64,000 nt of DNA from Callorhinchus milii (Eukaryota), in NCBI RefSeq assembly GCF_018977255.1, contig NW_024704761.1, positions 2,294,001-2,358,000 of the forward strand, given 5' to 3'. This document shows positions 36,001 to 64,000 of the stretch, piece after piece. How positions within the stretch are numbered: the first letter of the stretch is position 1; the number at the start of each line of letters is the position of its first letter. Made by a program: the position numbers.

Positions 36001-39000
36001 TCTACTGCATCATTGTGGGGAACAGCCCAAACACTTCCCAGTCAAACCATCTACAAAAACAAGGGAGCTTTGGGCCTGGACTATTCTCAAGCACTTCCTC
36101 AGAGTGACCTGGCTTCAGAGCAGCTTCGGTCCTTTTGGCTTGAGATGGTTAGTGACTCAGAGAGAAAATGAACAGAGTTTGAACTTTGCTATTTGTTCTG
36201 AATCTGTAGCTCATTGTGTCACACCTGCCTTGTTTCCTGGATGATGGTGGCACTGTTTTGTGACCACATGGTTCTGCCTGCATTTAAGTTCTGTCGGAAG
36301 GAGGGAATTGCTATTTACCAGCGTGTTATAGAGAGCAACGTTTTCGGCGCCAGCTACTCAGCGGGCCTGGAGACGGCCGAAGAGTGGAGCCATTTATACA
36401 ATAAAGCCTTAGACTCGGTTTCTCTGTGAAATAACTGCCCGCAATAAACCGTTCAGTAATTACAGTCTTACGATCTGTCACTTTTCCTACCATTGATTCT
36501 GCCCGCTTGTCAGACATTAAAACCTGGATGAATGCCAACTTCCTCCAGTTGAATATGGATAATCCAGAAGCCATCCTCCTTAGCCTTGTCAATGTCTTGT
36601 CACTCGTGGGTCCGACCCCCTTAACCTCCCTGGCCTCAGACTTACTGAACCTCAGCTGTCCTTCCTAGCTCACACTGGTCCCTTCATTTGCCTCAATGCC
36701 CCACCGTTTTCTTCTCCTCCGCCACCTGGCCCACCTCCGACCATACTTCACATGTGTCCGGATCACCCCAATCCTTGCCAGGTTCTACTGGCTCCCTGTA
36801 GCATAGCAGATCGATTCTCACAGTCATCTGCAAAACACTTCATGCCGTAGCACCTCCTTACATTTCTAATCTGCTCTGACCCCCACACACCTTGTCCCCA
36901 CACCCTTCACTCAGCCAGCTCTGGACATCTGCATGTCCTTCAAGCCCTTCGCTCCACAATCGGCGGCTGTGCTTTCAGCCTCAAAGCTCTTTAATTGCTT
37001 CTTCACTAAAATCTAATCACTTTTGAATATGCAGTTACTGATACGCAGTTTCCACTATCTCTCTGAGCGGTCATAGAAACAGCAGGAGGTCATTCAGCTC
37101 CTCAAGCCTGTTCCGCCATTCTGTAGGATCATGGTTGATCTGTACCTCAAGTCCAATTACCTGACCTTGACCCTGACCTAACAAATAGGTCAGAGTATTA
37201 AGGGATACATCTCTTTCACATGTTCACCATGTCCTGATTAGTTTCCCCTTCTGGCCCTAAATCTCTTTTGTAGAGCTTTGTGGTTATGCCAAACCTATTT
37301 GCATTCAGGGGGTTAGGAGGTCGCAGAGGTGGGGTGGGGTGAGGCTATGGAGGGCTTTGTATGTGATGACCAGGATCTTGAACTGGATCCTCTGAAGGAT
37401 AGGGAACCAGTGGAGTCAGACGAGAGTGGGGGAGATGGGGTCACAGAGTTTGGTGCGGGAGAGGACATGGGCTGCAGAGTTCTGGATTATCTGCAGCCAG
37501 GTCCGCGAAGATTGAGTAAAGAGGAGAGGGGGTGTATGAGGATGGAGTGGTCGACAGTGTTGAAGGCGGTAGAGAGGCGAGGAAGACAAGGAGGCAGAGG
37601 GAGCCCTGATCACAGATGTTCAGAATGTCATTAGTGACTTTGACCAGAGCTGTTTCCGTGCTGTGGGCAGCGCGGAATCCGGATTGGAGGAGTTCAAAGA
37701 GGAATGGCGAGAGAGAAAGGAGCGGAGCCGGGACGCAACGACTCGTTCCATTTGGAGAGGAATGGGAGGTTAGAGATGGGGCGGGAGCTGGAGAGGAGGG
37801 ATGGATCCAGGGAAGGTGTTTTTAAGATGGGGGTGATGACAGCTGTTTTTAGGGGGGTGGGAACTGAACCGGTGCACAAGGAGAGGTTGATGACATCGGA
37901 CAGGAGAGGGGCCAGAAGGTGGAGCTGGGAGACGAGGAGAGAGGTGGGGATGGGATCGAGGGAGCGGGTGGTGGGTTTGAGTTTGCGGACAGTCGTGGTG
38001 AGGGAGGAGGGAGGGATAGGGTCGAAGGATTACATCTTTGTGATGGATTTTCCCACAGGCCCCAATTTATATTTCGAGGATACAGTGTTGCATTGGTAGA
38101 GAAGTTTCACAATAATGTTTGAAAACACGTTCAGACAAGAGGAAACAAACTTGTTAGTTGGCAGGATAGGATTTGCCACATTGAAACCACCAATTTTGCT
38201 GATGGGTGTTTTGGAATATTTTCTATTTTTCTTTAAATAAAAAAGAAAGTAAGCCAATAAAATTCTAGCAACTCGATCTTCGAGAAGGTTTGTTCCAGTA
38301 TTGGTGGTTGCAATGTGGTAATTTACGGTACTGTAAACCATTACAGTTATTGTACGAAATGGCCATTGATTTGCTCAGGTCCTTCCTGGACTTCTAACCT
38401 TGTGAATTTATCTCCAGTTTGCGCTTTTACTTTACTGGGAGAAGCAGCTATGTTTGAGAATAAAGTCTTGCAGGCTTGGGACTATGTTGTTTTTGGAGTT
38501 ATGCTGGCTGTATCAGCTGCAATCGGAGTTTTTTATGCTGCTAAAAATGGGAAAGGAACTACTGAAGAGTTCTTGGTGGGAAACCGGTCAGTACAAAACT
38601 GAAGTTCAACGAGTAATAATACTAGTCCTTGCATTTGATATAGCGTCTTATCACAACAACAATAAAATTAAATTTATAGAGCGCCTTTCACGTCGGGAGG
38701 ACGGGCCAAAGCGCTGAACAGTCAGGTGTCGGGGCCCGAGCATGGGGGAGGGGTGGAGTAGGGGTGAGGGATGGCTGAGAGGTGGGAGGGAGACCAAAGG
38801 CACGGTCAAAGAGAAGGGTCTTGAGACCGGCGTTGAAGGAGGCGAGGGAGGAAGCGAGGCAAAGGGACCGTGGGATGGAGTTCCAGAGTGTGGGGGCAGA
38901 GAGGATGAAAGACCGGCCACCGATGGTAGGGCGGGTCGGGCACGAGACACGGAGCAACTGGAGCCCGATGAACGGAGGGAGCGGGCAGGTTGGTAGGGAG

Positions 39001-63000: not shown

Positions 63001-64000
63001 CATTTGCCCCACTATTGGTGGGTGGGCCTTCTGCCACTCTGCCCCCACCCTCTAGAACGCCATCCCACCAAGATTAGGAGACAACTGCAGTGAACAAAGA
63101 GAAATAGTAATTGATTGGTTTATGCACCGATTTAACAGGTCCTTAAAATAATTATTTTTCTTCTTTTATCTCAGGGAACATTTGTGGGTGTGCTTGTTGG
63201 TTTAATCCTTTCCTTGTGGTTAGGAATTGGTTCTCAAATCTACCGACCTTCCGATAGATTCACAGAAACACTTACGTTCTCAATAGCAGGCTGCGTGCAA
63301 GCTAACGTCACCACCTCAAGCTCTGTAAATATAACAGCTCTGATGACAACTATAACTTCTGTAAAACAGGAACAAGAGTAAGCCATTCAGTCACTCTCTC
63401 CAGAGCTAAACAAAAATGTACCAAATATAGAAGACTTACTGTTAATAGTTTGTTTCTATTTTAGGTTCAGCATTTTGGATAATATTTACTCCTTATCCTA
63501 CGCGTACTACACGCCAGTCGGTTGCCTGAGTACAATTTTTGTGGGTTTAATCGTCAGTGTATTGACCGGTAAGTAAAACAAATAATATAATATGAAAGCC
63601 AGATAAAGGAACTGGTGGCCACAGTTAATGCTTTGTATGGTGTTTGCTACACTTTGCTATTTGAGATTGGCAGTGATACCACATTGCTCCTGAGGTCACA
63701 TAACTATCTTTCTAACACTGTAGAAAAAAGTGTCTCTATCATTTTACTGAAACCAGGGCATGAAATGATAACAATTCAAAATGCGTCTAGCAACGACACT
63801 GTCATCACTTACCAATTTTATAAACACGCCCCAGTCTGATACCATATTCAGACAATGAGCGGGACAGTTTTTGTTTCCTAGTGTAGCATAAAGTTTCACA
63901 ACGGTTTCATTTAAGTAAGAAATTACAGGAATATTAATTCCGAAAAGCAGATTTTCAGTTGCCATTAATGAACAATTCTTTTTTTTTTGCATTATATAAT

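What the first reader, a model, noticed from the sequence alone, without database searches (positions are those of the whole stretch)
38450..63568. Tandem SLC5 pair with two extra introns in a non-syntenic position: candidate uncharacterised SLC5 subfamily
Seen: the region from Met to ..STYE is split into three exons (137 or 140, 62, 140 nt) in both copies. From memory, human SLC5A8, SLC5A12, SLC5A5 and SLC5A6 encode this stretch in one exon, while the downstream sizes here (66, 52, 68, 155, 141, 130, 89) match that family. None of those human genes lies near UNC13D/KCTD2/MRPL58. Intron gain is rare in vertebrates, so this may be an ancient lineage retaining ancestral introns and lost in mammals, or a case of lineage-specific gain.
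Basis: partly seen in the sequence, partly recalled or inferred. Interest (0 to 1): 0.65.

Follow-up and report, generated by a model that had tools for sequence, protein, structure and literature searches.

The report
Sixth shark-lamprey SLC5 transporter subfamily
Two neighbouring elephant-shark genes encode sodium-coupled transporters of a previously unnamed branch of the iodide/monocarboxylate transporter family that survives in cartilaginous fishes and lampreys but was not found in any bony vertebrate.

Summary
The window is Callorhinchus milii (elephant shark). Two intact SLC5 genes lie head to tail on the + strand. The first 15 exons have the reported sizes and all splice sites are AG/GT. 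A 604-aa RefSeq/GenBank protein of this species matches all 17 exons of copy 1 exactly.

In a 61-row maximum-likelihood tree both copies fall in a clade of 17 cartilaginous-fish proteins plus a lamprey protein (support 100/100). This clade lies outside the clade holding SLC5A5, SLC5A8, SLC5A8L and SLC5A12 (100/98). AU tests reject union with SLC5A8, SLC5A8L and SLC5A12 (p 0.0009-0.006) and weakly with SLC5A5 (p 0.031). No bony-vertebrate member appeared in three sequence searches.

The neighbours (ATP5PD, a KCTD gene, an MRPL58-like exon, an IAP gene) differ from those published for the five known subfamilies. Published boundaries of human SLC5A5 exons 8 and 11 coincide with window exons 10 and 13, which gives the offset of two exons. 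Whether the two introns are ancestral or gained could not be tested, because no eukaryotic genome collection was available.

The residues that the SMVT paper (PMC13454448) cites for substrate handling in SMCT1 (F65, T70, Q263) are kept, so a Na+-coupled monocarboxylate transporter is the most likely function.

The parts
38450..51034 (+). Copy 1, whole coding span (17 coding exons, 604 aa)
   Evidence: exact match to P0406
38450..38586 (+). copy 1 exon 1 (137 nt, ATG; donor GT; ends in phase 2 inside the Arg codon of the GNR motif)
38587..39467 (+). copy 1 intron 1 (881 nt), first 'extra' intron
39468..39529 (+). copy 1 exon 2 (62 nt; TM1 kink; its last full codon aligns with T70 of SMCT1)
39530..40261 (+). 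copy 1 intron 2 (732 nt), second 'extra' intron, phase 1
40262..40401 (+). copy 1 exon 3 (140 nt, ends ..STYE)
41582..41647 (+). copy 1 exon 4 (66 nt)
42707..42758 (+). copy 1 exon 5 (52 nt; skipped in the UniRef model P0001)
43279..43346 (+). copy 1 exon 6 (68 nt)
43592..43746 (+). copy 1 exon 7 (155 nt; Pfam SSF 26.8 bits, cut-off 22.8)
44259..44399 (+). copy 1 exon 8 (141 nt; holds the Gln aligned with Q263 of SMCT1)
44874..45003 (+). copy 1 exon 9 (130 nt)
45714..45802 (+). copy 1 exon 10 (89 nt; its first codon aligns with the first codon, Y324, of human SLC5A5 exon 8)
46478..46599 (+). copy 1 exon 11 (122 nt)
46804..46874 (+). copy 1 exon 12 (71 nt)
46993..47079 (+). copy 1 exon 13 (87 nt; same size and same start position as human SLC5A5 exon 11)
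47711..47916 (+). copy 1 exon 14 (206 nt; variable extracellular loop with N-x-S/T sites)
49246..49349 (+). copy 1 exon 15 (104 nt)
49950..50050 (+). copy 1 exon 16 (101 nt)
50951..51034 (+). copy 1 exon 17 (81 nt + TAA)
54197..63568 (+). Copy 2, exons 1-15; the last two exons lie beyond the window end
54197..54336 (+). copy 2 exon 1 (140 nt)
55077..55138 (+). copy 2 exon 2 (62 nt)
56383..56522 (+). copy 2 exon 3 (140 nt); a single N at 56538 lies in intron 3 and was left as it is
56843..56908 (+). copy 2 exon 4 (66 nt)
57177..57228 (+). copy 2 exon 5 (52 nt)
58339..58406 (+). copy 2 exon 6 (68 nt)
59495..59649 (+). copy 2 exon 7 (155 nt; Pfam SSF 22.8 bits, at the cut-off)
60563..60703 (+). 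copy 2 exon 8 (141 nt)
61250..61379 (+). copy 2 exon 9 (130 nt)
61515..61603 (+). copy 2 exon 10 (89 nt)
61773..61894 (+). copy 2 exon 11 (122 nt)
62485..62555 (+). copy 2 exon 12 (71 nt)
62667..62753 (+). copy 2 exon 13 (87 nt)
63175..63377 (+). copy 2 exon 14 (203 nt)
63465..63568 (+). copy 2 exon 15 (104 nt)

Best explanation
The region holds two intact, tandemly duplicated genes of a distinct vertebrate subfamily of the 'NIS clade' of SLC5 sodium:solute symporters, here called clade X. Clade X has several paralogs in cartilaginous fishes (chimaera, sharks, rays) and one gene in lampreys. It lies outside the clade that holds SLC5A5 (NIS), SLC5A8 (SMCT1), SLC5A8L and SLC5A12 (SMCT2). No bony-vertebrate member was found, so it was most likely lost in the bony-vertebrate stem (inferred). 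The proteins are about 604 aa long and align along their length with solved SLC5 transporters. They keep the TM1-kink Phe/Thr pair and the Gln that contacts butyrate in SMCT1, and they lack the Gln that marks NIS. They therefore most likely carry small monocarboxylates (lactate, short-chain fatty acids, ketone bodies) into cells together with Na+ by alternating access. The family fold and the residues are shown; the substrate and the coupling are inferred. Both copies have two introns more than human SLC5A5, inside the first 113 codons. These introns are older than the tandem duplication. An exon boundary at the second position is also visible in a zebra-shark paralog. Their ultimate origin (retained or gained) is open.
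For: Gene models: canonical splice sites and identical phases in both copies. Exact match of all 17 exon pieces of copy 1 to P0406 (NP_001279790.1), 595 of 604 residues. dN/dS 0.215 between the copies.

Family: Pfam SSF on exon 7 of both copies. Exon 8 hits SMCT1 7sl9 at E 7e-17 and NIS at 1e-16. The paralog P0013 aligns with SMCT1 over residues 5-598 at 585 bits.

Species and relatives: exon 7 is 100% identical to a C. milii record, and the next hits are sharks and rays.

Separate clade: IQ-TREE with LG+C20, 61 named rows and 612 columns. X plus Lethenteron has support 100/100. The clade A5+A12+A8+A8L+Lampetra+Myxine has 100/98. The FastTree of 179 rows shows the same split.

AU tests: X with A8+A8L p 0.00075; X with A8 alone p 0.00087; X with A12 p 0.0054; X with A8L p 0.0059 and X with A5 p 0.031.

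Per exon, directly from the window: 62-71% identical residues to X members, 55-57% to the lamprey protein, at most 46.5% to any other reference.

Reciprocal search with the lamprey protein: apart from itself and four long rows of 839-1048 aa (two echinoderm models, an unnamed one and a fused snake model), its best hits are X members (49-58% identity), ranked ahead of all but one SLC5A8-type row (44-50%). Its 90% cluster holds four lamprey species.

The clade labelled A8c is SLC5A8L: the Latimeria cluster carries that name.

Residues: F, T and Q at SMCT1 positions 65, 70 and 263 in both window copies. Across X rows the counts are 16 of 17, 15 of 17 and 17 of 17. NIS rows have Q at position 70 in 3 of 3 rows that cover it. 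The roles of these residues come from passages of PMC13454448.

Introns: human SLC5A5 has 15 exons (PMC8018529 and PMC1310906, passages). Its exon 8 starts at c.970 (Y324) and its exon 11 is 87 nt (G415-P443) (PMC9114739, passages). By the alignment these are the first codons of window exons 10 and 13, and exon 13 is 87 nt.

The zebra-shark isoform P0076 has an alternative N-terminus that joins exactly at the exon 2/3 junction.
Against: Only four SLC5A12 rows (all partial) and four SLC5A5 rows were available. No chimaera or shark SLC5A12 and no cartilaginous-fish SLC5A8 proper was in the set.

The stem of X is long (0.52) and lamprey sequences are known to be hard to place, so some long-branch pull cannot be excluded. 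The AU result against SLC5A5 is only p 0.031.

The rows for the window copies in the tree are database models with errors: P0001 lacks exon 5 and P0002 has a wrong N-terminus.

Absence from bony vertebrates rests on searches that scored only the 8000 candidates sharing most words or on 50% representatives.

No expression data by tissue and no transport data exist here. F, T and Q are also kept in SLC5A8L, and partly in outgroups, so they do not prove the substrate. Two of 17 X rows (clade c) have Ala at the T70 position, as SMVT has.
Confidence: 0.75

Rival explanations
1. The pair are fast-evolving co-orthologs of SLC5A8 or SLC5A8L that were duplicated and moved in cartilaginous fishes. Their place outside the named subfamilies, and their union with a lamprey gene, would then be long-branch artefacts.
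For: NCBI and UniRef name them 'SMCT1' or 'SMCT1-like'. SMCT1 is the best solved match of the paralog P0013 (585 bits against 533 for NIS). No cartilaginous-fish gene fell in the SLC5A8-proper clade, so a slot is free. The X stem is long.
Against: The AU tests reject X with A8 (p 0.00087), with A8L (p 0.0059) and with both (p 0.00075) under a site-heterogeneous model. The lamprey link is reciprocal in sequence searches and holds exon by exon. The flanking genes differ from those published for SLC5A8 and SLC5A8L.
Confidence: 0.1
2. The genes are real members of clade X, but the transported substrate is not a monocarboxylate. It could be another small anion, a vitamin-like carboxylate as in SMVT, or an osmolyte tied to shark and lamprey physiology.
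For: X split from the SMCT/NIS group before those diverged from each other, and that group already spans iodide and carboxylates. Clade c of X has Ala at the T70 position, as SMVT has. The extracellular loop of exon 14 and the C-terminus are unrelated to SMCT1.
Against: F65, T70 and Q263 are kept in both window copies. The Gln that marks NIS is absent in 17 of 17 X rows.
Confidence: 0.25
3. One or both copies are pseudogenes or an assembly artefact.
For: Copy 2 is cut by the window end. Its public model P0002 is badly built. One N lies in its intron 3.
Against: Both copies have open frames across 15 exons, with 58 of 58 canonical splice dinucleotides. dN/dS is 0.215 and the copies share only 72% of residues. 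Copy 1 equals an NP_ RefSeq record.
Confidence: 0.03

Closest known systems
SLC5A8 (SMCT1), electrogenic Na+-coupled monocarboxylate transporter; structure 7sl9
   Same: Same Pfam family. Alignable over nearly the whole length. The F65/T70 TM1-kink pair and the butyrate-contacting Q263 are kept. Public records name the shark genes after it.
   Different: At most 46.5% identical residues per exon set, against 62-71% within clade X. Union is rejected by AU (p 0.00087). The flanking genes differ.
SLC5A8L (slc5a8l of Petersen et al. 2022, PMC9309457)
   Same: Also a NIS-clade gene that is missing from tetrapods. Cartilaginous fishes have an ortholog of it, annotated as 'SMCT1'.
   Different: SLC5A8L sits beside tshb, sycp1 and ngf, and is present in ray-finned fishes, coelacanth and lungfish. 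Clade X sits beside ATP5PD, KCTD and MRPL58-like genes and was found only in cartilaginous fishes and lampreys. The AU test rejects union (p 0.0059).
SLC5A12 (SMCT2)
   Same: NIS-clade member with the same TM1-kink residues.
   Different: The AU test rejects union (p 0.0054). SLC5A12 lies between ANO3 and FIBIN (PMC9309457). The two SLC5A12 rows that cover the Q263 position have Thr there.
SLC5A5 (NIS, iodide symporter; structures 7uuy, 9zfl)
   Same: Exon boundaries and one exon size (87 nt) coincide exactly at two tested positions. Sequence similarity is close to that with SMCT1.
   Different: NIS has Gln where X has Thr in the TM1 kink. Human SLC5A5 has 15 exons against 17 coding exons here. 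Union is weakly rejected (p 0.031).

Membership tests
Sodium:solute symporter family (Pfam PF00474, SLC5) | Match to the SSF profile at or above the curated cut-off | tested here: met
   Exon 7 of copy 1 scores 26.8 bits and exon 7 of copy 2 scores 22.8 bits (cut-off 22.8). Of 10 exon pieces scanned, 3 matched SSF at E<=0.1, 6 matched nothing and 1 gave a weak unrelated hit.
Sodium:solute symporter family (Pfam PF00474, SLC5) | LeuT-type fold with 13 transmembrane helices | not tested
   No structure was predicted. Only sequence alignment to solved SLC5 chains was done: P0013 residues 5-598 against 7sl9, and exon pieces.
NIS clade of SLC5 (A5, A6, A8, A8L, A12; PMC9309457) | Groups with these genes and not with the SGLT or CHT clades | tested here: met
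   Best solved matches are SMCT1, NIS and SMVT (407-585 bits), against SGLT at 94 bits or less and CHT1 at 31 bits. Tree.
SLC5A8 (SMCT1) orthology group | Nests in the SLC5A8 clade | tested here: not met
   Outside a 100/98 clade that holds SLC5A8. AU p 0.00087.
SLC5A8L orthology group | Nests with coelacanth, lungfish and ray-finned slc5a8l; lies beside tshb, sycp1, ngf | tested here: not met
   AU p 0.0059. The clade is named through the Latimeria record. The window's flanks are ATP5PD, KCTD, an RF-1 exon and an IAP gene; slc5a8l flanks are from PMC9309457, section 3.2.
SLC5A12 (SMCT2) orthology group | Nests in the SLC5A12 clade; lies between ANO3 and FIBIN | tested here: not met
   AU p 0.0054, with only 4 partial SLC5A12 rows. 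The flanks differ (PMC9309457).
SLC5A5 (NIS) orthology group | Gln at the start of TM1b (Q72), critical for iodide; nests in the NIS clade | tested here: not met
   Thr in both window copies. 0 of 17 X rows have Gln, and 3 of 3 NIS rows covering the site do. AU p 0.031.
Functional class: Na+-coupled monocarboxylate transporter | Phe plus a small residue in the TM1 kink (F65/T70) and Gln263 contacting the carboxylate | tested here: met
   map the window residues to SMCT1 positions 65, 70 and 263. The roles are from passages of PMC13454448.
Functional class: Na+-coupled monocarboxylate transporter | Na+-dependent uptake of lactate, short-chain fatty acids or ketone bodies | not testable with these tools
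   Needs expression and transport assays.

The most novel reading that the evidence does not exclude
Clade X is a vertebrate-stem SLC5 lineage that stood apart from the ancestor of NIS, SMCT1, SMCT1-like and SMCT2 before cyclostomes and jawed vertebrates split. It sat in the chromosome block that became human 17q25 and was deleted in the bony-vertebrate ancestor. Its two 5' introns are relics of the ancestral gene structure, removed together in the sister lineage. Its multiplication in cartilaginous fishes (at least three old paralog lines, a, b and c, which lie on contigs of identical length in four species, taken here as the same chromosome) serves the ketone-body-based fuel economy of these animals. 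That elasmobranch fuel economy is recalled from physiology, not tested. The protein would then be a dedicated beta-hydroxybutyrate/acetoacetate-Na+ carrier.
Probability: 0.15. Interest if true: 0.65.

Novelty: new member of a known kind. Interest (0 to 1): 0.5.

Why it matters
The published history of the iodide/monocarboxylate branch of SLC5 (PMC9309457) counts five genes in the bony-vertebrate ancestor and sampled no cartilaginous fish or lamprey. A sixth lineage that is older than the split among NIS, SMCT1, SMCT1-like and SMCT2 changes the count of ancestral vertebrate genes. It gives a new outgroup for asking how iodide selectivity arose from carboxylate transport. It also adds a clean case of a gene kept only by lampreys and cartilaginous fishes.

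It offers a concrete test case for intron loss versus gain in a slowly evolving genome. Practically, it shows that 'SMCT1' and 'SMCT1-like' labels in shark and lamprey annotations cover three different genes.

Tried and rejected
I stopped that step and set all boundaries by coordinates read.

2. Pfam on single exons is weak. Six of 10 pieces gave nothing, and the fragments I take for UNC13D and WBP2 gave no family. Those two neighbour names therefore rest on my recognition of the translated fragments, which is recall.

3. Paper searches found nothing on the human SLC5A8 exon map ('SLC5A8' with '15 exons': 2 papers, both about glucose transporters, seen as listing only). They also found nothing on the shark genes (0 papers; 15 listed, none holding the transporter term).

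4. PMC3730242 is not held. The proto-chromosome paper PMC8302630 had no passage on the 17q25 block. Its supplementary tables, and those of PMC9309457, are closed and might assign the block to a paralogon.

5. Intron positions in relatives could not be mapped. The only genome collection open here holds bacteria and archaea, so it was not used.

6. The alternative C. milii models P0010-P0012 of the third paralog show read-through after ..STYE but nothing at the two 5' intron positions.

7. I considered and rejected a haplotype or assembly duplicate (72% residue identity) and pseudogenes (open frames, dN/dS 0.215).

8. The joined step was left out. All searches with window sequence were exon by exon. 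Whole-protein work used database records only.
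Full report
**What is there.** The window has 26 N (a run at 27914-27938 and one base at 56538). They were left as they are. A blastn of 38000-53500 against 53501-64000 gives 14 collinear conserved blocks among many repeat hits. Reading these blocks with their flanks and fixing boundaries by coordinates gives two genes on the + strand. Their first 15 exons are 137/140, 62, 140, 66, 52, 68, 155, 141, 130, 89, 122, 71, 87, 206/203 and 104 nt. All 28 acceptors are AG, all 30 donors are GT, and the phases are identical in the two copies. 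Copy 1 goes on with exon 16 (49950-50050) and exon 17 (50951-51034 with TAA). That makes 17 coding exons and 604 codons. The last two exons of copy 2 lie beyond the window.

**How the searches were run.** Every search with window sequence was exon by exon, and the joined step was left out. Whole-protein analyses used public database records that the tools returned.

**Whose genome, and is the model real.** Exon 7 of copy 1 is 100% identical to a UniRef record of Callorhinchus milii (elephant shark), and the next hits are sharks and rays (58 proteins with E<=0.001 among 86 candidates).
- The 90% cluster of that record holds P0406 (NP_001279790.1 / K4G0E8 / AFK11141.1, 604 aa).
- All 17 in-frame exon pieces of copy 1 occur in P0406 exactly and in order. 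They cover 595 of 604 residues, and the other nine are the split codons. The model, with both 5' introns, is thus backed by an independent record. That this record is cDNA-derived is my reading of the accession types.
- The automatic models are faulty. P0001 skips exon 5. P0407 lacks exons 6, 16 and 17. P0002 (copy 2) skips exon 2 and reads into intron sequence.
- Between the copies, 303 of 422 compared codons give the same residue, and dN/dS is 0.215. Exons 1 and 14 were left out because their lengths differ.
- A third C. milii paralog (P0013, 618 aa) is not encoded in the window.

**Family.**
- Exon 7 of both copies matches Pfam SSF at or above the cut-off. Of 10 exon pieces, 3 matched SSF at E<=0.1, 6 matched nothing, and 1 gave a weak unrelated hit.
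- Exon 8 matches human SMCT1 (7sl9, E 7e-17), NIS (1e-16) and SMVT (2e-12).
- P0013 aligns with SMCT1 over residues 5-598 at 585 bits, with NIS at 533 bits, SMVT at 407, SGLTs at 94 or less, and CHT1 at 31.

**Which subfamily.** Petersen et al. 2022 (PMC9309457; abstract and sections 3.1, 3.2 and 4.1 read) define five NIS-clade genes in bony vertebrates: slc5a5, 6, 8, 8l and 12. They give the positions as Hsa19, Hsa2, Hsa12, beside tshb/sycp1/ngf, and between ANO3 and FIBIN. They sampled no cartilaginous fish or lamprey.

I collected relatives with three sequence searches.
- P0013 as query: 2924 hits among 8000 scored candidates, best 120 listed.
- Every-protein HMMER search of 50% representatives: 13972 hits, best 150 listed.
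- The lamprey protein P0073 as query: 806 hits among 8000 scored candidates, best 120 listed.

Twenty representatives were named through, and ten further records through.

A preliminary FastTree of 179 rows (59 named, 120 unnamed representatives) and a careful IQ-TREE (LG+C20+F+G4, 61 named rows, 612 columns) agree.
- The window copies sit in a clade of 17 cartilaginous-fish rows (13 species, chimaera to rays) plus Lethenteron, with support 100/100.
- The sister-side clade holds SLC5A5 (4 rows), SLC5A12 (4), SLC5A8 of tetrapods and teleosts (11), a clade 'A8c' (9), a second lamprey gene and a hagfish gene, with support 100/98.
- A8c is SLC5A8L. The Latimeria record's cluster carries the name 'Solute carrier family 5 member 8, like'. 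Its taxon set (coelacanth, lungfish, teleosts, no tetrapod) fits the paper.

AU tests reject holding X together with each named group:

| Group held with X | p-AU |
|---|---|
| A8 + A8L | 0.00075 |
| A8 alone | 0.00087 |
| A12 | 0.0054 |
| A8L | 0.0059 |
| A5 | 0.031 |

I chose the other groupings afterwards.

Directly from the window, exon by exon, the pieces of exons 1-15 share 62-71% of residues with X members and 55-57% with the lamprey protein. They share at most 46.5% with any A8, A8L, A12, A5, A6, amphioxus or tunicate reference. Short pieces without a BLAST hit count as zero, so the low values are lower bounds.

**Distribution.** In one search the rows I take for X by name and identity are 38 rows from cartilaginous fishes and one lamprey row. 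Twenty-six of the cartilaginous-fish rows were placed in the tree and 17 in the tree.
- These rows have 53-93% identity to P0013, apart from P0013 itself at 100%. Every other single-gene row has 52% or less.
- No bony-vertebrate row ranks among them, except over-long fused models (a snake and a teleost record of 971 and 983 aa, at 50% and 46% identity).
- In the reciprocal search, apart from the lamprey protein itself and four long rows of 839-1048 aa (two echinoderm models, an unnamed one and a fused snake model), the best hits are X members (49-58%). They rank ahead of all but one SLC5A8-type row (44-50%).
- The lamprey protein's 90% cluster holds Lethenteron reissneri, Lampetra fluviatilis, L. 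planeri and Petromyzon marinus.
- Loss in bony vertebrates is inferred from this absence. Both word-indexed searches scored only the 8000 best candidates, and the exhaustive search shows 50% representatives only.
- Within X there are at least three old lines (a, b, c). The window copies belong to line a. Whether they split before or after chimaeras and elasmobranchs diverged is unresolved (93/70).
- Line a and line b or c genes lie on contigs of identical length, taken here as the same chromosome, in Scyliorhinus canicula, Cetorhinus, Rhinoraja and Pristis. The SLC5A8L-type gene lies on another contig.
- A bamboo-shark model (P0019) fuses two neighbouring genes. So a gene cluster seems general.

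**Neighbourhood.** Upstream of the pair lie the following:
- ATP5PD, three exons, minus strand, 13738-16567, Pfam Mt_ATP-synt_D.
- A KCTD gene, BTB_2 domain, plus strand, 17415-21140.
- An RF-1 exon with the GGQ motif, minus strand, 27065-27208, E 7.6e-7 (below the whole-domain cut-off), which fits MRPL58.
- An IAP gene with BIR, UBA_BIRC2-3 and RING domains, plus strand, 31328-35851.

Fragments that I recognise as WBP2 (8455-11071, minus) and a C2 domain of UNC13D (1238-1561, minus) gave no Pfam hit. Those two names, and the statement that this gene set is human 17q25.1, are recall. None of the flanking genes published for the five known subfamilies is in the window.

**The two extra introns.** Both copies are interrupted at two sites. 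The first is in the Arg codon after G-N (phase 2). The second is after the codon that aligns with T70 of SMCT1 (phase 1), which is exactly at the TM1 kink. The introns therefore predate the duplication (dS 0.84).

For human SLC5A5 the papers give the following:
- 15 exons (PMC8018529 and PMC1310906, passages).
- c.152 lies in exon 1 and c.1261 in exon 11 (PMC8018529).
- Exon 8 begins at c.970, which is Y324.
- Exon 11 is 87 nt and encodes G415-P443. Exon 12 is 197 nt (PMC9114739, passages).

Through the NIS alignment, Y324 and G415 align with the first codons of window exons 10 and 13. Exon 13 is also 87 nt, and exon 14 is 206/203 nt. So the boundaries are conserved and the numbering is shifted by two upstream of exon 10. 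For SLC5A8, A12 and A6 nothing could be checked.

Within clade X, public isoforms skip exactly exon 8 (P0007), exons 9+10 (P0072, P0019) and exon 13 (P0024). A zebra-shark line c isoform (P0076) replaces the N-terminus up to exactly the exon 2/3 junction. So the second extra intron is probably shared by lines a and c.

Retention versus gain stays open. On the tree, if SLC5A6 and the A5/A8/A12 group all lack the introns, both scenarios need two events. Outgroup gene structures would decide.

**How it most likely works.** The following is shown: SSF family; full-length similarity to SMCT1 and NIS; and conservation of the positions that the SMVT structure paper (PMC13454448, passages) singles out for SMCT1. 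Those positions are Phe65 with the small Thr70 at the TM1 kink, and Gln263, which hydrogen-bonds butyrate.

Both window copies have F, T and Q there. Across X rows the counts are 16 of 17, 15 of 17 and 17 of 17. The missing F is the mis-modelled P0002, and the two non-Thr rows have Ala. NIS has Gln at the Thr position in 3 of 3 rows that cover it.

The following is inferred: Na+-coupled, alternating-access uptake of small monocarboxylates. Stoichiometry, tissue and physiological role are unknown.

**Novelty.** Three paper searches found no description of these genes. The one family study found covers bony vertebrates only. The genes themselves are in public annotation under 'SMCT1(-like)' names. 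I therefore rate this as a new member (a new subfamily) of a known kind. It is of moderate interest to people who work on transporter and early vertebrate genome evolution.

Noticed in passing
window 31328-35851 (+): An inhibitor-of-apoptosis gene lies directly upstream of the SLC5 pair. It has a BIR domain (E 1.7e-13), a BIRC2/3-type UBA domain (1.7e-13) and a C-terminal RING (2.5e-16).
   Followed up: partly
window 13738-16567 (-), 17415-21140 (+), 27065-27208 (-), 8455-11071 (-), 1238-1561 (-): Gene order upstream is a UNC13D-like C2 fragment, WBP2-like, ATP5PD, a KCTD gene and an MRPL58-like GGQ exon. ATP5PD, the KCTD gene and the RF-1 exon are backed by Pfam. The WBP2 and UNC13D names are recognised from the translation only (recall).
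   Followed up: partly
window e.g. 45519-45638, 47211-47409, 48942-49062, 54605-54782, 57862-57966, 62271-62394; also 9551-9893, 23586-23942: A short interspersed repeat of about 110-200 bp occurs in both orientations in many introns of both SLC5 copies and elsewhere in the window (70-90% identity between copies). It was not classified.
   Followed up: no
window 11290-12573 and 17700-18800, 22538-23334, 29371-30113: There are long GC-rich simple or low-complexity tracts that read as Pro/Ser/Leu or Thr/His/Ser repeats in several frames. One lies in the first intron of the KCTD gene. They produce very long spurious ORFs of up to 610 aa.
   Followed up: no
proteins P0079-P0085, P0094: The cartilaginous-fish genes annotated as plain 'SMCT1' group with coelacanth, lungfish and teleost SLC5A8L (100/100), not with tetrapod and teleost SLC5A8. 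No cartilaginous-fish gene fell in SLC5A8 proper, so either it is missing there or it was not among the listed hits.
   Followed up: partly
proteins P0001, P0002, P0407, P0010-P0012: The automatic UniRef models of the elephant-shark X genes are faulty. They skip the 52-nt exon 5 or the 62-nt exon 2 and read into introns. Small exons that are not a multiple of three seem to defeat homology-guided prediction here.
   Followed up: yes
window 37441-38106 (both strands), 38651-39190 (-), 40562-41334 (+): There are fragments of retroelement-like ORFs (reverse-transcriptase-like and tail sequences) just upstream of copy 1 and inside its introns 1 and 3. Related pieces recur in copy 2.
   Followed up: no
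window 27914-27938 and 56538: There are two masked or gap stretches: 25 N inside the MRPL58-like region and a single N 16 bases into intron 3 of copy 2. They were left unfilled, and neither touches an SLC5 exon.
   Followed up: yes
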